This document shows, one piece after another, positions 4,951 to 33,565 of a DNA stretch of 61,958 nucleotides. This stretch comes from Girardia tigrina (taxonomy: Eukaryota): assembly GCA_001938485.1 (NCBI GenBank), contig MQRK01216696.1, forward strand, positions 1-61,958, written 5' to 3'. The translations under genes were made by a program, and so were the position numbers. The notes beneath the pieces were generated by a model, which saw nothing but the letters and a program-made list of their open reading frames with translations, made no database searches and had not been told where the DNA came from. The stretch's first letter is position 1. Each line of letters starts with the position of its first letter.

Positions 4951-6238
4951 TTAGGGTAAACCAAAAGTCTTTTCGTATTTTCTACGTCTTTTTGTTCAAT
5001 TGTTTTTTTATTACCAAATAAAGATATTTTATATACATGTGTTATATGTTTTTAAAGCTCTTGAACTGCTCTATCACAATATATATTAAAACTTCTAATT
5101 AGTCGTTAATATAATTTTTATGGTCTCTTAGAAAAATCATGGAAAATGTTGAAATTCGTGTTCTTTTACGCCATTACTGGAAACAGGGCTCAAACGCAAC
5201 TGCAGCAACAAAAAAGATATGCGAAGTTGAAGGCGATAATGTGGTCTCAAATCGTACTGCACAAAATTGGTTCAAAAGGTTCAACGAAGGCGACATCGAC
5301 CTCGGAGACAATGCACGTTCAGGCCGACCTATCACCGTAGATTCCGGAGCAATTCGTGAAGCCGTCGAGACAAATCCGTCAATAAGTACTCGGAGATTGT
5401 CGGCTGAACTCGATATTCCTCAAACATCCATTGTACGACACCTTCACGCTCTTGGCAAGGTCAATAGACGATGTCGAGAAGTGCCTCATCAATTGACACA
5501 AATTCAAGCCGAAAAGCGTTTCGAAACTTGTCAAAAATTGCTTGAAAATCCGTGCGATGTCCGTTTCATCCGTCGAATTGTAACTTGCGATGAAAAGTGA
5601 ATTTACTTCAGTAATCCAGACCAACAAAATCAATGGTTGGACCCCGGACAAATGGCGAAACCGGTAGCGAAACGAGATCGTTTCTCAAGGAAGGCACTTT
5701 TGTGTGTTTGGTGGAATTTCGAAGGNGTGATTCACTTCGAGCTGGTTCCAAATGGTCGTACCATCGACACTGACCTTTACTGCGCCCAACTTGATCGAAT
5801 GTATGCGGCACTTGGCGAGAAATACCCCGCTTTGATCAATCGAAAGCGAGTTCTTCTACAACAGGACAATGCAAAACCGCACACCGCAAAACAAACAAAG
5901 GAAAAAAATCAAAATCTCGATGCCTTTGAACTTCTTCCACACCCATCATATAATCCGGATCTTGCGCCATCCGACTATCACCTTTTCCACTCTATGTCAC
6001 ACTTTCTTCGTGGTCGCAGCTTCAATAATCTGGCTGAGATCGAAAATGGGTGTCACCAGTTCTTCGCTTCTACGAACAAGGATTGGTACCGCAGCAGGAT
6101 CGCACAACTTGCCCATAGATGGGTTCAAGCTATAGATTCAAATGGCCTTTACTTTGAAACTTAAATATTTTTTATTTGTTGTAAAATTATGTTTAAATTT
6201 TTAATAAAAAATACGAAAAGACTTTTGGTTCACCCTAA
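4951..6238 (+). mobile_element. Full-length mariner (DD34D, Mos1-like) with one premature stop
   Basis: TIRs TTAGGGTAAACCAAAAGTCTTTTCG / CGAAAAGACTTTTGGTTCACCCTAA with TA TSD. ORFs 5139-5600 and 5637-6164 are in the same frame: TCDEK*, QDNAKPH, HPSYNPDLAPSDY. Confidence 0.95.
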
Positions 6239-7269: not shown

Positions 7270-8690
7270 TCTTTACCCATTTGAATATTAATTAATGAGT
7301 TGCAGTGTCTTATCAATAATGATTAACGGAACTTCCGCTCGCAAAGCCCTTATGTAAAACACATAACTCAACCTTTGAAAGAGAAGAGATTCTATTCTTA
7401 CAATGTATCCAATGATCATGAACCATATTTGATTGACTTGATTGTAAGTGCTCACTAATCCGAGTTTTGAGATGACGATAAGTCTTTCCAATGTGGACAT
7501 CCCATCTGCATTATAGTATTGAGCCTTATGCTCTTTAGAAAGTCCACCCAAACTGAAAAAGTCTGTCAGTCTCTGATAGGCGTCCTGCACAGACGTCAGC
7601 CTTTTGCTCCCGAGCCTTCTTAGGCATTCCAATGAGAAACGACATAATAGCTATTATGTCTATGACTGGCCAAACATTTGGCTGAGTTCGTTGAAATTTA
7701 CGCAGTCGTGAAATGGAGATTGGAGTGTTTCTCTTGCATATATTACTGGAATTCGGAACCCCAAGTGCGTTTACGGTATTCGTCTCCAACGTCTTTGTCT
7801 CAGTGGCATTTGATGCTCTATCTGTCGTAAATTGTCTCTCTTCTTGTGCATATTTTGATTCTCTTCGTATCTGCGTTTCTGTTTTGATTTCATATTCTCC
7901 TAGCTTGTGATCGTTTCTTAGGTAGCTTGATCTACAATCATCTGTTTTTTATGACCTCGAGCTTCGTCCTTCTGTTCCTTCTGTTTCGTGAATTCTTTGA
8001 AATCGTTCGATTCAGAAAAGTGAATAACTTTGGTCCTCAGTCTGATACGTTTTTTCAGGTCCTCCGAAGACTGTCTTATTATGCGTCAATTGTATATCAG
8101 TGGATTGATCCTGTCTTCCATTCGTAGATGAGCATTATCTTGCATAAGTAATCCTAAGAAGCTATTATATACTTCTAATTTACAGATTTGATCATCAGTA
8201 GTTTGTTAATTATCACTGCCATAGTATATTGCCATTAGTATGTCACAATTTTCTACTCTCGAACTTTTCAGAATCGGTTTTTGTTCAAAAAATTTCGCAT
8301 CATCTTTCTTGAATCTTTCTGCTATGTCACAAGCACAGGTGCATGAGGAGCTGATGATGGATCCTAGGTAACAGAACTCTATGACCCAGTCAATTTCTAA
8401 TTTTAGTTCGTTTCCAGCTCAATATAATTTGGTGCTTCTGCTAAAATTAATCACCTTTGTCTTATTGACTTTGATTTTGAGACCCAACGCAATAAATTCT
8501 ACGTTCAATCTCCTCAGATGTACATGAGGTTCTTCTAGGTGGATGCTAGGAAGAAGAGATCATCAGTATAGATTAAGTAGTTTATTTGGATACTGATTCC
8601 GTTTTTATCTCTTATCTATATTCCACCTGCCATACCACGTTCAATAGCAATCTTGATTGACTTGTCGGTCAAACACCTTTGCTAATTTAC
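7270..8690 (-). mobile_element. Degenerate non-LTR retrotransposon (LINE) RT and 3' region
   Basis: The minus strand gives a YADD-like motif near 8560, followed by LGLKI..NKTKVI and FCYLGSII, the conserved LINE RT C-terminal motifs. Many stops. Confidence 0.7.
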
Positions 8691-13320: not shown

Positions 13321-14199
13321 ATTTGTCGCCGAGCTTCGGCTGACTGGCATTGGAATTGAACAAAGTCTCTTTGATACGATGCTCGCATCGCTTTAACAAA
13401 AAATGAATGCGAATTGGCAAATCTTTTGATGTCTACGATGGCAAACAGTCTTTTCGAATACGGTCTAGTTTATTTTCGTACAAACTCATAAGATAGAATA
13501 TTTACCATTTTCGATTTCAAAATGAGTCGTAACTCTCAAATCTTTGAATCAATAAACTTTATTTTTAAAAAGTTGTGCAGTTTCCGCTTAACATATTTAA
13601 ATAAAAACTCAAAGAAAAGATCTTAATGCCATCAAACTTCTTTCACACCTAGAATATAATCTGGAACTTGTGCCATCCATCTATCACCTTTTCCTTTCAT
13701 GGTACACTTTTTTCAATAATCTGGGTGGCGTCTAATACGGGGATCTAGAATTTTTTGCCCCTGAAAACAAAGAATGGTAGCACATTGGGATTAAACAACT
13801 TGTTAAAGATGAATTCAAGCTATTGATTCAAGTGGTCTTTACTTTGGATCTTGTTTTTTTTGTTTTTGTAAAATTACTTTGAAATTTAAAAAAAATCCGA
13901 ACTTGTGGTTCATCTTAATATTTTTGAATAAAGGAGCGTTGAAAATATCTTTAGTATCATTACCTAAAAATATACATACCTTGTATATGTAAAATTTAAC
14001 GATAAAGCAGTTTAAATATTTTATGAAAAATATTAGAATTATGCTACTATCTTTATTTAAAAATACCATTTTTATCTAACAAGTTTAGTACACCATAGTA
14101 TAGCGCTGATATGTGTCACAGGTAATTACAAAAATATCATCATATCATGTTCTTTTTATTTAACGATAATTTTTTGAAACATAAATTTCTTTTCTTAAG

Positions 14200-21127: not shown

Positions 21128-21221
21128 GGATTTACTTGCTCCAAACTCATCCCTTGAAACAGTAGAAAATTTCTTTTACAATATAACCAATGATCAAGAA
21201 CCATACTCGATCGACTCAATT
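21128..21221 (+). CDS. PRUNE2: Probable PRUNE2-like linker exon
   Basis: aag/gtaaat boundaries. Open frame DLLAPNSSLETVENFFYNITNDQEPYSIDSI ends in phase 0, matching the next exon. The upstream link needs a small exon, perhaps 20948-20982. Confidence 0.5.
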
Positions 21222-21458
21222 GTAAATGCTCACAAATCCTGGTTTTGAGATGACAATTTGTGTGTGTGTATTATGTATATTATTGAGTCTTGAGAACATT
21301 AATTTGATATTTTTGAAAAATAATTTATTTTAAGCTTTTTAAAGAAATTGATTATTGAACATATTTTGAAGTTTCATACATTATCATCAATAATAACTTA
21401 ATTTGCAAAATATTTTAATGTTATTGAATCCTTATTCAAATATTTTACTAATTACTAA

Positions 21459-24397
21459 TGTGAAATAATTAACAGTAACTATGTCAGTGTTATAAATTAA
21501 GTTAGGGTTGTTTTAACGAAGTGTGTAAATCGACAGATTTGAATTATTTAGGATTACCGGCTCGAGAACTTGGTTTTATTAATCTCGATATCTCCCAAGA
21601 TATCGTGGCTCTAAGAAGACGTTAAAGATAGTGCCGGCCTTCGATAGGCGAAAAATGTATCCTTATGGCTTGAGCTCCTCAATGCTCTGCGAGGACAAGC
21701 AGACGATGTTGCTGCTGGCGCTATCTGGAGAAGCAACAGTTATGTTCTGGAAACTGATCGAAACGTCGATGAAGGATTTCGAGAAGAGTGCAACGGCGTT
21801 CATCGAGGCTTTCGCATCAATTCCTTGATTGTCGTGGACGAGGTTCGTCTCACTATGCCTAGAAATCGGCGAGAGCGTTCACTACTTTATGGTTGATTTG
21901 AAGCGATTAGTCATGGTTATTTGAGGAGGTGCCGGCGGCTGTGATGTCTTTGGGACCCATACTTTTATAAGCGGGCTGCCCGAAGCGGCCATAAGGAGCG
22001 TGGAAGCCGAGGTGCAAGATTTGGATTGGCTGGTTCAGTTGTACCACGTGCATGTTGAGGTTGCACACACATTCACCCAGGATGTTGTGGCCATGGCCCA
22101 GCCGGCCCGAAATTTAGCGTCGATCAGTAGGTTAAAATGCTTCTGTTGCAGAAAGAGTGGGCACGTCGCACGTGAGCGCGCGACCGAGAGACACTGCCAT
22201 CGGGCAATGACAGACCAAGCAGGATCAAGGGGTCAGCAATGCTTCAGTTGCAGCGGTGCGGGTCACATTGCGAAAGAATATCGTTGAGTGGATCAAAAAC
22301 CGGCGGATAACGGACAACTGTCTCACACTGCTGCGCAGATGGAGGGCCTGGACATAGTGACGCGCGACTAACAATCACCCCGGCAATCGTATGTGAGAAG
22401 GCGGGGATAGCGGTAGTTAACACGGTCCGTTCGACCACAGTGGTTAAAGAAGTGTTGGTTCCACCGTCCAAATTTATTCGTGTAAGGGAGTCGGTGCAGT
22501 TGATGGACGACTCGGAGGCGAGCATAAAATTCAGAGCGTCAATATCGATCGAGTGTGGTCGGAGACGAATCGAATGCAACGTATTGGTAGTGCCAAAAGT
22601 TATAGCGTCGAGGGTCGAGGTGCTTCTAGGAATGGACGTCATCAGGTAGTTCGGGAGCGTATGGGGATCAGAAGTGGCGATGGGGTCACGACGAGACAAC
22701 ATTTAATTGCATTGTTGGAAGATGAAGACTTCTCAGCTGAATTCGATGGCAAATTATGGACCGTGGCATGGAAGTAGAAATCTGGCAAGGAGCCACCAGA
22801 ACCGATAAAAAAGGTTGCCGAACCCGATGACCGGTAGATGGGACGTAGTGGATTGTAGACGGGGACGAGTGTGGTGCGATGCGAGCTCTATCGCAACGGG
22901 CATCTCTGTAGAAATCGGGGAGAGGTGGTCGAGAACGCGTCTTAGTAGCGCAAGGAAGACGATATAGCTTACATAGATCTGGCATAGTTTGAGGCAGCTA
23001 ATGAAGCTATGAAGGCGACAGTGGAATGAGTACTAAACAAATTCGAGAATATGACCGATCTGCCACAGTATTCCGATTATGATAAATACGTTGAAGGGCG
23101 ATAGATCGGTCCATTCCAGGGGATCAGTGAGCTGCTGATGAAACAACGGATAAGCATCATACGGAAAACTTTTGAGTGGGACGAATGAAGTTTCTGGCGA
23201 GGAAGCTCTGGGGTCCTGGTCGAGTGTCAGAGAATCAAATCAAAGTAGTAGTGAATGAATGTCCTCGGTTTGCGTCAAGCAATCCCGCAGCTGTGAAATG
23301 GGAGAAGGGCGAGCTGGGCGTAAAAGGAACATGACAAAGTCACGCGATGGATGTAACGAACACTACCGAGGGGAAGTTCATAATGTTGGTGAACTGTGGA
23401 CCAGAATGGTTCTCAGTGTGGAGAAGAATCGGATCTGAAAGTGAAGAGGGGCTGTGCACCGATCTCAAGGCGGTGTTTAACGAATTCGGGCCTCCAAAAG
23501 AGCTGTTAGTGGACAATTTCGCAACCAATCGGAGAGCAACGATTCGGAAACTGTTGGCAGGAACGGTCGTCAAGATCCTCTACTGTTGCGCAAACCAACC
23601 TAGCGGAAACGGGATCGCTGAGCACTGTCATCAGACGATCAAGCGCATGGCAGCGAGGAGCAGGAGGTCAACCGAGAACATGCTCGCGTGGTACCACGCC
23701 AATCCGAATTCAGTCGGCATAATTCCGGCATCGACTGTCTTCGCGGAGCAGAGGCGGCTGCCGTTGCTTAAAGATTTTGCGGGTCAAGGTCCGAAGATAA
23801 TACAGGTTAGAGACAATTCAGAGATAGGAGTAGGTGACGTGATGTATGTGAAGCTAGCGAACCCAAGATGTACAAACCAGTGGTGAAGAGCGGTGGTGGG
23901 TGAGGTCCGACCTCACAATCAGGTGGTGATCGACGGGATTCCATTCCACGTGTCGCACGTCAGACGCGCTTCCTAGAGCTGCGATTCGTCTGCCGATGAA
24001 GGATCCAAGGACCCGATTGCAAATCTTGGATGCCTAAGGATGAGGTCGATAGTGACAGTTCTGACGGTTCAGACCGGGGCATGACAGAAGATGTTTTGGA
24101 GAGCGATCAGAGTCAAATGAGCGAAGGGACAGCACGGTGTCCGCGATGTGTGATCGTTCAACCAGCGCATTTCAAGGACTTTTTTGCACAGCACTGTATA
24201 GATCAGAGAAAGACGTACCCCTGTGCACGAGTGGTGTGTTCATATGTGCTTTAAGGACAAGGGGGAGTGTTAAAGGAATTAACAGTTATATATCAGAGTT
24301 ATAACTTAAATTAGGTTTGTTTTAACGAAGTGTGTAAATCGACAGATTTGAAGATTACCGGCTCGTGAACATGATTTTATTTATCCGATGTCGCACA
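21459..24397 (+). mobile_element. Gypsy-like LTR retrotransposon A, RT largely deleted
   Basis: LTRs 21459-21597 and 24268-24397 (TG..CA), TSD ACTAA and PPT AAGGGGGAG. Gag Zn knuckles, protease LLGMD and an integrase core at 23347-23886. Confidence 0.92.
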
Positions 24398-25006
24398 ACT
24401 AATCCATTAATCAAGCTTCAATATGGGCAAAATAAGACTGTTTAAATTTATAAAATCTTTAAATAAATCTTTTATTATTAATTTTCAATGATATCTTCAA
24501 TGTTAAACATTCAAAATTTTCAACAATCATCACAACAAAATCTAATGGTGAGGTTTAAAATGATAATCATTCTGAAGATATAAACGAGCTATTGAAAACG
24601 TATTGAACTGGCATTAATAAAAACAACTTTATTGGTATGGAAAATCTGAGGAGACTGAAGTAATGTTGATTAATCTCCTTATAATTATAAATATAATAAT
24701 AATAAATATAATGTCGAACAATAAGAAAAACCTAATCGTCCAATCCAGAATTAAAAATTTAAATATCTAATGTATATAAAAGCATTGAATGTATATTAAA
24801 ATTTGTCTAGCTGTCCAAATTATTTGAATTATATTCAGATCGAGGAAACCCAAATAACAACCTTACAAAATATGAAAATGAATATAAAAAAATCAAAAAT
24901 TCTAACAAAAAATTTCTGATTTTTTAAAGCTTATAAAATATATTTGAAAAATCTTCAGAAATTTTCAAGCATTCAATATTTTTTTAGAAATTATATAATC
25001 TTTTTA

Positions 25007-26820: not shown

Positions 26821-27674
26821 ATGCAAATACTAATTGATATATTTTAAAATGTATCTATTCGTTTCATAAAGAATTTAACTTTTTTAAAGACTATTTAACA
26901 ATTTTTAAAGACCATTTAACTTTTATGAAATTATAAAACATTTTTTGAAATAATGTAATAAATTTTATTTTAAAAATAAATTTCATGCGCCATATATAAC
27001 GATTATTCAAATAAATATTTGTTATTAAAATTATTTTAGTATATTTCCACATTCCCATCAGGTTCGTCTGTAGTCAAATATACATCAATGACATAGTCTT
27101 ATAAATAACTCAGTTTAATCTGAATGTGATTCTCTAGGGTTTTGTTGTTCGTCAGTTTCAGAAGATACGTCAGTAAGATACGGTTTTATAGTATTTTTCT
27201 CTGGTTCACTGATATGTCTAGGAAACCATAAAGCACTACACTCAATTAAATATTTGCAATATGAAAACTTTTTTTATCCTTGTACCTTTTTAACATCGGT
27301 CTTATCCAGACCAATTCATAGTTGCAATATTCTTTTTTTACATTTTAAATTTTAAATGTGCATTTTGTGTAAATTTACACATTATGCTAATTATAGGGAA
27401 AAGTTCTCAATATATGAAAATTCTAATTACCCATTTAGATAGAAAATCAAAATGTGCATCAAACACATGATATCAATTTTTGACACTAGTACAAATTTTA
27501 TGTATTGATTTTTGCACTTTTGCACATGTGCAACTTAAAAAAGCACTTTGCTAGCACATTAGAAATGTTCGGCACAATGTACAATATCGATTAGCACTTT
27601 AAAACTATCGATTAGTACATTTGTGCACTTTGTAGCAATCGATTAGCACTTTTTTCTACAGTTGCAAAGGAAAA

Positions 27675-29694: not shown

Positions 29695-32600
29695 TGTTGG
29701 ATATTAGATATTTTAATTATTTGAAATATTTAATATTTACTTTTTTGATAAATATTTTGTTTAAATATTATCAATTAAACAGTGTTTTGAAAAAAAACTT
29801 TTCGCGTGTTACAAGCTATCCGGGCATAATGAATGATATGAAAATCGTTTTGGAGTTTTTAGAGAAATTCGATGGAAGCATCAGTTTCGAGATTTGGCAG
29901 AAGAAATTTGAAATGATCATGAAAATCCAGAAGATTACTGATCCAGCCCCGCATCTCCCTTTTTTACTCTCGGGTGTTGCACTGAACATCTACATGGAAT
30001 CGGACGAGAAGACGCAAAGTAACTGCGATCGGTTCTTCAAGATATTAAACAATTCGTTCGGCCTGACTAGACGTTCTGCGTACAGTCAATACTTACAGTA
30101 TCACGATGGCGAGACTATCGATGAATATGCATCTCAGGTGAAGATGCTAGCAACGAAGGTCGACGATCTAACAAAGGGTGCCTTCATGGCTGGACTGCCT
30201 TTCGAGTTGCAGGTGGATTTGGAACGGGCCGGCGACCAACCCCTGACCGAAATGATCGAGTATAGCCGCAGGTATTTGGGGATTAAAAAGGGTTTATTAC
30301 AGGGTTCAATGGCAGCAATACAACACGGAAACAACATCAAAGAAACATGGAGTTCCGGAGGTCAGGGCGAACTCGATAAACCCAGAGCAAATCTTCAGAA
30401 AGGACCCTATGTTCATCGTGAGAGAGACACTAAATTGAAGGAAAGTAATCATCATAAGGGTTCTCAGTGGCAATTAAACAGATAAACAATATGCTACAAA
30501 TGTCAGAAACCGGGTCATATCGCAAAATATTGTCGGTCGGGAAACGAACAGGGGAGTTTGTAGGCGCCGGCTCTCTTCCTTCACAGTTGACGGCGTGGCC
30601 GACGATGATCGTCACAGTAAATGACAGGTCAGCCATAGCGTTGATTGATTCACGTTGTTCGAAAACGGTTGTTTTAAAAGGGTTAGTTAGTGATTGTATG
30701 TTGTTTTCTGACGGAGAAAGTATGGTTTTGGCGAATGGAATAGGTGTTAGAGTGGGTTCGAGTGAAGTGCGGCTGAATATAAATGGCAGGATCATTAGGG
30801 TTGAATATTCATGGAACATTTGCCGTACGGTTTAGGGATCTTAATAGGTGTGGATATCATAAGTAAATTGGGCGGCGTGAAAATTAATAAGGGTGTTATT
30901 GAGTTCGGTGAAGAGGAAATTAAAGGGATAGATAGTAGCTTGAGTTGTACTGCATCGGATGCGCCTCTTGTTAGTATAAAAAAGCATAATTTTGAAATTG
31001 AGTTTAGGGAAAATTGGTCGATTAAATGGAATTGGAAAAGTGAGGCTCCGAGTTATCTTCCTAATCGTCAGTCAGTTTTTAAGCACAACAAATTAAAAGA
31101 TGTTGCAACGTTGAAAATTTTAGACGGTTGGGTAGAAAAGGGTTATCTAATCGAGTACAATGAGGAAGAAATGGGTAAATCGATAGGATCCATACCGATA
31201 TTTTGAATATTACAGGCTAATAAGTCCAAGATAAGACCCATTTTTGATTTTAGAAAATTAAACAATTATGTGAACGTTTATAGTGGTTCTGCGGACATAT
31301 GTTTAGAAAAGCTCCGCGATTGGCGACGTAGGGGTTTGACTTTTTCAATGCTTGATTTGTCAGAGGCGTACATACAGATTCATGTTCATAAGGACATGTG
31401 GCGTTACCAATCTTGTATCATTAATAACAAGAAATATGCTTTAACTAGGATGGGTGTTGTTTTAAACATTGCACCAACTATAATGACCGAAATCGTCAGG
31501 TGGATTCTGAATTTTGACACCAGGATACTTGAAAATACTGACTCTTATATTGATGATATTTATGTAAATGAAAGTTTCACTTCTGTTGAAGAAGTAGAAA
31601 AAGTGGTCAATAACTTCGGTCTCAAATGTAAGAAACCGGAAAATCTGTCACAAGCCAACGAAGTTCGAGTTTTAGGAATGAAAGTCTTTAAAGACCAACA
31701 TGTAGTGAGATGGAAGAGGGACAATCAGGTAAGGGATGAGCTGGACGTGGAATCAATTTCACGTCGCGAGTTATATTCGTTATGTGGACAATTAGTAGAA
31801 ATACACCCGGTAGCTAATTGGCTACGTCCGTCATGTTCATATCTTAAACGACTTAGTGAGGGAAGGTGAGATGAAAAGATAGACGAGGAATTATTCGAGA
31901 AGATTAAATGGGTTTTAAAGACAGTGAGGGAGAGTGATCCTTGCAGAGGTTTATGGGCTATTGATGACTGCAGGGAAGGTATTATATGGTGCGACGCAAG
32001 TTCAATAGTCATTGGTGCGGCGTTAGAAGTCAAAGGGAACATAATTGAGGACGCATCATGGTTGAGAAAAACTGATGATTCTAGACATATTAATGTAGCA
32101 GAACTAGAAGCAGTTGTAAAGGGTTTAAACTTATGTGTGAAATGGGGTTTAAGGAGCGTGATAGTAAAATCGGATAATAAGTCATTAGTTTCGTGGGTCA
32201 AGATGTCAAGAATGTCAATCCATCGATCCGGCACCCGTAAAATGGAAAACAAAGTACAATCAACAACAATCTCAGATCGTGAAAAATTAAATACCAAGGC
32301 TTCATCTGAGCTTTTAATAAAACGAAGACTGTCGATGATCAAGGAGCTGTGTCAGGAGTATGAGATCGAGTTGAAGATAGAGTTTGTTTATAGCGAAGCT
32401 AACAAGGCAGATGAGTTGACAAGAATCCCAAAACAATTAAAAAGAAGCAATTGTTTTTTATCTGTTACGGACGATCTACTCAAGCTGCAGCAACTTCATG
32501 ATAAGTGTCATTTAGGCGCAAACTGAATGCGATATTTATGTGCGAAGCAAGGAATAGGTGTGTCAAACGCGGATATCAAGGATCTGATTTCAAGATGTCA

Positions 32601-33565
32601 AGAATGTCAATCCATCGATCCGGCACCCGTCAAATTGAAAACAAAGTACAGTCAACAAAAATTTTTAAGCGTAATCGATTGTGGTCCTTCTCGCTTTGCG
32701 ATATAGAAATTAATTAAGGCTGAAGACATCAAGTCAATTGTCTCAGAATTCTAAAGTTTGTTCTGTGAACGCGGGTCTCCCAAGGAACTAATTATCGATA
32801 ATTATACCACATTTCATTCGGTAGAATTCAACAAACTAATGAAAAAATGGAACGTTCGTGTCATGTATCGTGCCATCAATCGACCCAACTGCAACGGAAT
32901 AATAGAAAGGAATCATAGAACAATCAAAAGAATTGCGTCCAGATCAAATATCAGCATTTTGGAAGCCTTATGGTGGTATAATAACACNNNNNNNNNNNNN
33001 NNNNNNNNNNNNNNNNNNNNNNNNNNNNNNTATTTGCCCATAGGGTTAGATATAATTGGAAGAAGTGAAAAGGAGCCGTTCTGTGGAAATCCAGATTATG
33101 TTGAGAATCAATTAGTGTGGGTAAAACCGGAAAACAGTACACCATGTACACAGCAATGTACCAAGGGTGTTGTCGTGAAAAGAATAAATCAAAAGAAATA
33201 TCTAGTAAATTGCAACGGATTTTGTGGTCCAATACATATCGCAGACATTTGACCTAGACAGCCTGACTTGGTTGAAAATTCCAAGTCATACTATATGAAT
33301 ATGGAGGAAACTGCATCACTACCAGACAATCAAATACAAGAGGAACAATCATTGAACTGTAGGCCTAGTAGAGAAAGACGAAGACCNNNNNNNNNNNNNN
33401 NNNNNNNNNNNNNNNNNNNNNNNNNNNNNNNNNNNNNNNNNNGGAGTGTTGGATATTAGATATTTTAATTATTTGAAATATTTAATATTTACTTTTTTGA
33501 TAAATATTTTGTTTAAATATTATCAATTAAACAGTGTTTTGAAAATAAACTTTTCGCGTGTTACA
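29695..33565 (+). mobile_element. Gypsy-like LTR retrotransposon B (gag-PR-RT-RH-IN), near complete with a few stops and frameshifts
   Basis: 119-bp LTRs (29695-29813, 33447-33565) with one difference and TSD GTTAA. ALIDS protease, LDLSEAY/YIDD RT, WCDASS/HINVAEL RNase H and integrase IDN..ERNHRTIK. It sits inside an older mariner remnant. Confidence 0.95.
29814..29825 (+). promoter_or_regulatory. Non-canonical primer-binding site complementary to tRNA-Lys(UUU) nt 1-12
   Basis: AGCTATCCGGGC immediately after the LTR's CA is the reverse complement of GCCCGGATAGCT. Confidence 0.8.

What the first reader, a model, noticed from the sequence alone, without database searches (positions are those of the whole stretch)
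21598..21609. A second, diverged LTR family has the same 12-nt PBS geometry
Seen: right after the 5' LTR end (..CTCCCA) comes AGATATCGTGGC, whose reverse complement is GCCACGA-TA-TCT. Known: tRNA 5' ends have 7 acceptor-stem nt, then U8, R9 and usually G10. Inference: this is one substitution from a tRNA 5' end (GCCACGATAGCT) in an older, decayed copy whose LTR is unrelated in sequence to element B. It would be independent support, with a different tRNA.
Basis: partly seen in the sequence, partly recalled or inferred. Interest (0 to 1): 0.7.

Follow-up and report, generated by a model that had tools for sequence, protein, structure and literature searches.

The report
Retrotransposons primed by tRNA's front end
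A decayed jumping gene belongs to a widespread animal group whose primer site matches the first 12 letters of a host tRNA instead of its usual tail end, which suggests these elements likely start copying themselves from a tiny tRNA fragment, a priming mode not among the three commonly listed.

Summary
The 12-mer is there, directly after the 5' LTR of a decayed LTR retrotransposon (21459-24397, 5-bp TSD). Family copies point to AGCTATCGCGGC, the exact complement of nt 1-12 of the host tRNA-Phe(GAA); this copy is two substitutions away, not one. No tRNA starting GCCACG was found. The same site follows CA 995 times in the genome (control 0), in many unrelated LTR families; element B uses the tRNA-Lys(UUU) version. 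Of 54 metagenome relatives with enough upstream DNA, 47 carry the same geometry, with middle letters that change to match Phe, Lys or Tyr 5' ends, and conservation stops at tRNA nt 1. In three host families, copies switch between the exact Lys(UUU) and Lys(CUU) complements, as expected if the site is re-copied from the primer. Self-priming and palindrome readings failed. Priming itself is inferred, not shown. Ten literature searches found no description, but Repbase, GyDB and subscription papers were unavailable. Elements A and B share a clade, so the support is covariation, not independent origin. The scan's notes returned no earlier report of this geometry.

The parts
21454..21458 (+). 5' target-site duplication ACTAA
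   Evidence: same 5-mer follows the 3' LTR
21459..21597 (+). 5' LTR of element A (TG...CA, 139 nt)
   Evidence: 114 of 129 aligned bases identical to the 3' LTR
21586..21605 (+). 8-bp hairpin between the LTR end and the primer site, perfect only in this copy
   Evidence: fold; not general in the clade
21598..21609 (+). 12-nt primer-binding site, decayed; 10 of 12 complementary to host tRNA-Phe(GAA) nt 1-12 (one change is a G-U wobble)
21691..22287 (+). gag remnant with CCHC zinc knuckle, broken
   Evidence: tblastn to P0013 E 1.6e-5; Pfam zf-CCHC E 3.6e-5
22332..22655 (+). aspartic protease remnant
   Evidence: weak tblastn to P0006 residues 6-110, E 0.004
22715..23164 (+). junction where most of the reverse transcriptase is missing, then RNase H remnant
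   Evidence: tblastn jumps from P0006 residue 154 to 445 within about 40 bases
23155..23964 (+). integrase remnant
   Evidence: 35% identity to P0006 residues 625-891, E 1.6e-47
24259..24267 (+). polypurine tract abutting the 3' LTR
   Evidence: sequence
24268..24397 (+). 3' LTR of element A (130 nt), not followed by the primer site
24398..24402 (+). 3' target-site duplication ACTAA
29695..33565 (+). element B, younger member of the same clade; LTRs 118 of 119 identical, TSD GTTAA
29814..29825 (+). element B primer site AGCTATCCGGGC, 12 of 12 complementary to host tRNA-Lys(UUU) nt 1-12

Best explanation
The 12-mer is the decayed primer-binding site of an LTR retrotransposon whose clade carries, directly after the 5' LTR, the complement of nucleotides 1-12 of a host tRNA, and these elements likely prime reverse transcription from that 12-nt 5' tRNA piece. 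Shown: position, complementarity to host tRNA-Phe, -Lys(UUU) and -Lys(CUU), the sharp end at tRNA nt 1, and switching between the two Lys forms within families. Inferred: (1) Gag's zinc knuckle anneals the tRNA's 5' strand to the site, opening the acceptor and D stems; (2) the tRNA is cut or trimmed after U12 to give a 3'-OH, most likely by the element's own RNase H at the end of the RNA duplex, by analogy with Tf1 (recalled; about 50%), otherwise by a host nuclease; (3) minus-strand synthesis starts at the LTR's last base; (4) plus-strand strong-stop synthesis copies the primer and runs off at tRNA nt 1, which fixes the site at 12 nt and lets a near-cognate tRNA rewrite it.
For: Family A: 15 of 15 copies with LTR end plus leader match the complement of host Phe nt 1-12 at 10-12 of 12; 10 of 10 3' or solo LTRs match at 1-6. 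The host tRNA-Phe 5' end is known from a split gene whose halves ARAGORN calls Phe(GAA), with a 7-bp acceptor stem. CA+AGCTATCGCGGC: 995 hits, control 0; 30 sampled hits fall into 16 LTR clusters. CAAGCTATCNNGGC: 3,797 hits, control 22; 84 of the 100 listed are exactly the Lys(UUU) (59) or Phe (25) complement (counted by hand). 37 of 52 sampled host hits have gag-like sequence downstream. Metagenome relatives: 47 of 54 loci with at least 700 nt upstream of the protease carry CA+[AC]GCTA 640-1150 nt upstream; 4 of 4 with two complete LTRs have it directly after the 5' LTR (LTRs found without the motif). Positions 10-12, which were not part of the anchor, hold 1.2-1.5 bits; position 13 holds 0.17 (44 non-redundant hits). 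Variants equal published tRNA 5' ends: Phe (PMC7038984), Lys-CUU (PMC5605243), Tyr (PMC5371417). Switching: 17 Lys(CUU)-type sites against 2 with the other transversion, and 0 such T-to-G changes on the Phe background, among 100 listed of 122 hits. The host has tRNA-Lys(CUU) with that 5' end, and three families hold both forms.
Against: No primer, cut tRNA or cDNA was observed; everything is genomic. No intact tRNA-Phe gene was found in the assembly, only interrupted ones. For most metagenome variants (TCTAG, TCACG, TCCCG, CCTCG and others) the host tRNA is unknown, so their match is to the general tRNA pattern only. Positions 1-5 were part of my search anchor. L218 and L219 carry a different sequence at the presumed LTR end, and L222 was not resolved. 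Three family-A copies (two of them probably one locus) read G at position 9, matching none of the 17 host 5' ends seen. The T-to-C change at the Lys switch position is almost as common (15) and matches no tRNA seen; as a whole the pattern is below its control (122 vs 362). Some Lys(CUU) copies may descend from one event. 15 of 52 host hits gave no gag match, many with short contigs.
Confidence: 0.82

Rival explanations
1. The tRNA 5' end pairs with the site, but as a packaging, dimerisation or RNA-folding cofactor; the real primer is something else.
For: No priming was observed. An intact tRNA bound by its 5' end offers no 3'-OH at this site, so priming needs an extra cut that is not shown.
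Against: The site sits exactly where a primer's 3' end must lie, abutting the LTR. No canonical TGG site recurs at a fixed place upstream of gag. Switching between the exact Lys forms within families is what copying of the primer gives.
Confidence: 0.1
2. Self-priming as in Tf1, or a palindromic or hairpin site as in GalEa elements; the tRNA match is incidental.
For: This copy forms a perfect 8-bp hairpin with its LTR end, and the site begins with the palindrome AGCT.
Against: Longest complement of the 12-mer in each element's own upstream 400 nt averages 5.0 against 5.2 in shuffles, maximum 7; at most 6 of 12 positions are self-complementary. U5-site duplex energy is -3.5 own, -3.8 swapped, -4.0 shuffled. 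The perfect hairpin depends on a substitution found in 1 of 15 copies.
Confidence: 0.04
3. The motif is a conserved protein-binding or integrase-related signal that resembles tRNA 5' ends by chance.
For: The ends of the motif (AGCTA, GGC) are nearly fixed, as a protein site could be.
Against: The variable middle is not free: 84 of 100 listed host hits take one of two forms, both exact host tRNA complements, whereas chance hits in viral contigs spread over 30 kinds of middle. The Tyr-type variant changes the GGC end to match tRNA-Tyr.
Confidence: 0.04

Closest known systems
Half-tRNA priming in Ty1/copia elements (copia, Ty5, Osser, Bryco, Bianca, fungal Helenus); PMC6317226 and PMC10886601, passages read
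   Same: The primer is a 5' fragment of a tRNA and needs a cut to get its 3' end.
   Different: There the cut is in the anticodon region and the site pairs with the middle of the tRNA; both papers restrict it to Copia lineages. Here the site pairs with nt 1-12, implying a cut in the D stem, in elements with PR-RT-RH-IN order.
Tf1/sushi self-priming (named in PMC6317226, passages read; the 11-nt primer and RNase H cut are recalled, paper not held)
   Same: Short primer of about 11-12 nt taken from the 5' end of an RNA after a cut at the end of an RNA duplex.
   Different: Tf1 uses its own transcript; here no self-complement exists and the partner is a host tRNA in trans.
Canonical 3'-end tRNA priming of retroviruses and most Ty3/gypsy elements (PMC10886601, PMC13524379, passages read)
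   Same: Site directly after the 5' LTR; Lys and Phe tRNAs; site apparently re-copied from the primer.
   Different: The canonical site begins TGG and pairs with the CCA end; this one begins AGCTA and pairs with the opposite end. PMC13524379 searched only the 3' 12 nt of tRNAs, so such a pipeline would miss it.
Cigr-1 clade of Ty3/gypsy (named in PMC6238403, passages read; element size recalled)
   Same: Possibly similar small size and invertebrate range; a lead only.
   Different: Not compared by sequence: the original paper was not held and no reference sequence was available.

Membership tests
LTR retrotransposon | TG...CA direct terminal repeats, TSD, polypurine tract | tested here: met
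LTR retrotransposon | gag, protease, RT, RNase H, DDE integrase | tested here: met
   All present in element B and intact relatives; in element A as remnants with most of RT missing
Ty3/gypsy | pol order PR-RT-RH-IN | tested here: met
   BEL/Pao shares this order (recalled)
Ty3/gypsy | RT/RNase H group with Ty3/gypsy references | tested here: inconclusive
   Pfam RVT_1 below cut-off in P0006, RT_RNaseH weak or absent, RVT_3 and DUF7047 instead; the listed Ty3 match covers the integrase region; structural matches all at 10-16% identity. No reference tree could be built.
BEL/Pao | Peptidase_A17 and BEL-type gag domains | tested here: not met
   none among the 15 Pfam families matched by 11 relatives
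Canonical tRNA-primed elements | site begins TGG and pairs with the tRNA 3' end | tested here: not met
Half-tRNA-primed elements | site pairs with the anticodon region | tested here: not met
   site pairs with nt 1-12 of host Phe and Lys
Self-primed elements (Tf1/sushi) | site complementary to the element's own LTR | tested here: not met
Cigr-1 clade | RT/RH phylogeny with Cigr-1 | not testable with these tools
   no reference sequence; paper not held

The most novel reading that the evidence does not exclude
A deep, widespread animal lineage of LTR retrotransposons, marked by DUF7047 and an atypical RT/RNase H, uses a fourth priming mode: it captures a mature tRNA by its 5' end and cuts it after U12 with its own RNase H, a trans version of Tf1 self-priming. 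It would thereby make 12-nt 5' tRNA fragments and sidestep silencing by 3' tRNA fragments.
Probability: 0.4. Interest if true: 0.9.

Novelty: new variant of a known kind. Interest (0 to 1): 0.78.

Why it matters
A survey of plant elements lists three primer types: whole tRNA, half tRNA cut in the anticodon stem, and self-primer (PMC6317226, passages read). A 12-nt primer from the tRNA 5' end would be a fourth. It is used by thousands of copies in this genome and by relatives annotated in nematodes, crustaceans and an insect (their primer sites were not read). It predicts a new tRNA cut site, gives a direct biochemical test, and shows a blind spot in PBS finders that look only at tRNA 3' ends.

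Tried and rejected
An intact host tRNA-Phe gene was not found in five searches; its 5' end comes from interrupted genes. Self-priming, palindrome and general U5 hairpin readings failed. A Tyr-type site is nearly absent from this genome: 1 hit. No RNA holder listed for element A; no reads were laid. Viral contigs gave one distant relative and what look like chance motif hits. Structure prediction of relative P0006 (pLDDT 72.5, pTM 0.49), fold searches, PDB sequence searches and the ESM Atlas did not place the clade. The integrase tree used 39 of 56 labelled elements (17 lacked 95 aa of the core); A's branch is long and its place unsure. Rfam found nothing in the window. Literature searches found no description of a site complementary to tRNA nt 1-12; papers printing these 12-mers were not about retrotransposons by title, and the three I opened used them as tRNA probes or primers. 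Three papers were not held. No supplements were read; Repbase, GyDB and subscription journals were not searchable and may hold a note of this site. Look-ups in the scan's own notes returned other primer-site oddities, none of this kind.

Full report
Observation. AGATATCGTGGC lies at 21598-21609. It follows the last base of a 139-nt 5' LTR whose partner is at 24268-24397; 114 of 129 aligned bases agree and ACTAA is duplicated on both flanks. Between them lie remnants of gag with a zinc knuckle, protease, RNase H and integrase; most of the reverse transcriptase is missing. The LTR is unrelated to that of element B at 29695-33565 (119 of 500 shuffles score as high).

What the family reads. A search of the genome gave 40 matches, of which 30 were fetched. 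Fifteen carry the LTR end plus leader (two pairs look like duplicate assemblies), ten are 3' or solo LTRs, and five were left out because the LTR end had to be extrapolated. The commonest letter at each position across the 15 spells AGCTATCGCGGC, which L009 and L020 carry exactly; position 3 is A only in the window copy, and position 9 is C in 10, G in 3 and T in 2. So this copy has two changes, one of which still pairs as G-U.

The host tRNA. The pattern GCCNCGATAGCTCAGT gave 4 hits, all GCCGCG. They are 5' pieces of tRNA-Phe next to an inserted repeat. In contig C181207 the 3' half lies 1.8 kb away; computed together the halves give a tRNA-Phe(GAA) by ARAGORN. No uninterrupted Phe gene turned up. 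The 15 leader copies match the complement of its nt 1-12 at 10-12 positions, the ten other LTRs at 1-6. Element B's site is the exact complement of host tRNA-Lys(UUU) nt 1-12.

Genome-wide. CA+AGCTATCGCGGC occurs 995 times, control 0; 30 sampled hits form 16 clusters by upstream sequence. With the two middle letters free there are 3,797 hits, control 22, and 84 of the 100 listed are the Lys(UUU) or Phe form; 13 of the other 16 are single transitions from these (counted by hand). Gag-like sequence follows 37 of 52 sampled hits.

Other organisms. A profile of 11 relatives found 1,089 proteins; named ones come from Trichuris, Petrolisthes, Macrobrachium, Amphibalanus and Macrosteles. Eighty of 109 confirmed metagenome loci were kept. 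Fifty-four have at least 700 nt upstream of the protease, and 47 of these carry CA+[AC]GCTA 640-1150 nt upstream. Of the other seven, two have the 12-mer after a changed LTR end, one has it on the other strand, one starts in a damaged site, two differ and one is unresolved. Where two complete LTRs could be found without using the motif, 4 of 4 have the site directly after the 5' LTR. Among 44 non-redundant anchored hits (89 found, 40 dropped for lacking a 100-codon ORF, some true sites among them; four kept ones look like chance), positions 10-12 hold 1.49, 1.23 and 1.34 bits and position 13 holds 0.17. The site therefore ends at the base that pairs with tRNA nt 1. At the other end, tRNA nt 13 is C and the LTR's last base is A, so pairing stops at nt 12. 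Three variants equal published tRNA 5' ends: Drosophila Phe (PMC7038984), Lys-CUU (PMC5605243), Plasmodium Tyr (PMC5371417); one passage was read in each. For the other variants the host tRNA is unknown. The variants change at least 15 times on an integrase tree of 39 rows, which holds both A and B but does not resolve their place.

Evidence that the tRNA is copied. If the site is regenerated from the primer (established for retroviruses; recalled), a near-cognate tRNA should sometimes rewrite it. Among 100 listed of 122 hits with a non-T at position 6, 17 are the exact Lys(CUU) complement, 2 carry the other transversion, 15 the transition, and none has T-to-G on the Phe background (the pattern as a whole is below its control, 122 vs 362). 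The host has tRNA-Lys(CUU) genes with this 5' end. The 17 fall into five families; three, including element B's, also hold Lys(UUU) copies, and six of the 17 are closer to a UUU copy than to another CUU copy over about 200 nt of flank. This is indirect, and the number of independent events is not fixed.

Rivals. Self-priming and palindrome models, prompted in part by earlier notes of the scan on other genomes, fail: own-LTR complement averages 5.0 nt against 5.2 in shuffles, and U5 pairs with the site no better than controls. The neat hairpin in this copy rests on a change unique to it. A non-priming role for the tRNA remains possible.

Mechanism. Most likely the tRNA anneals by its 5' strand, is cut after U12, primes minus-strand synthesis at the LTR's last base, and is copied to its 5' end during plus-strand strong-stop synthesis. 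The cut is unobserved; the element's RNase H (as recalled for Tf1) and a host nuclease are about equally open. All tRNAs identified have A9; avoiding methylated G9 would be a reason (recalled chemistry), but my anchor required that letter.

Comparison and novelty. PMC6317226 (passages) lists three primer types and PMC10886601 (passages) knows 3'-end and anticodon-loop priming; this site fits none. It works like half-tRNA priming in using a 5' fragment and like Tf1 in primer length, but fails the membership tests of both. The clade has PR-RT-RH-IN order, yet an atypical RT and RNase H, and could not be assigned to a named lineage; Cigr-1 is an untested lead (PMC6238403, passages). Passages of PMC8220671, PMC13524379, PMC3587641, PMC4139406 and PMC11410931 held nothing on such a site. 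Ten searches found no description, but I put about 30% on a note existing in Repbase, GyDB or an unsearched paper.

Verdict. The copy itself is decayed; its value is as the entry to a clade-wide, testable priming variant. Interest 0.78; new variant of a known kind.

Noticed in passing
G000:C181207 (L062 89-119 and L142); also L058, L059, L061, L063, L141, L144, L146-L149: Host tRNA-Phe(GAA) gene split by an insertion of about 1.8 kb, with 16 nt of the tRNA duplicated. Related inserts follow Phe and Tyr 5' pieces elsewhere. Looks like a tRNA-gene-targeting transposon; Dada makes 6-7 bp TSDs (PMC3706591, passages read), so a 16-nt duplication would fit a non-LTR element better (inference).
   Followed up: partly
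L252-L269 (18 hits): In one Lys(UUU)-type family the site continues with GCCCG(A), the complement of the tRNA's 3' acceptor strand; possibly a one-time capture or fold-back. Seen in 0 of 44 metagenome hits.
   Followed up: partly
window 21586-21605: The C-to-A change at site position 3 makes a near-palindrome with the LTR end perfect; possibly a template-switch mutation.
   Followed up: partly
L218 1385-1396 and L219 1483-1494: Two more distant relatives carry GCCTATGAGTGG after the presumed LTR end, matching no tRNA 5' end seen; priming mode unknown.
   Followed up: no
L223 2017-2028 and L226 467-478: CGCTATCTGTGC variant; L226 nests among AGCTATCTAGGC elements in the tree. Either a switch to a tRNA with G12 or decay.
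   Followed up: no
window 27124-27335, minus strand: Short tblastn match to the C-terminus of relative P0004 (E 4e-8): a further fragment of this clade.
   Followed up: no
window 32198-32270 and 32590-32662: 73-nt duplication inside element B's pol, 95% identical.
   Followed up: no
window 5911-5988 and 13617-13694; 7398-7479 and 21176-21257: Two further dispersed repeat pairs (81% and 84%); the first looks like a mariner transposase stretch (recalled, untested).
   Followed up: no
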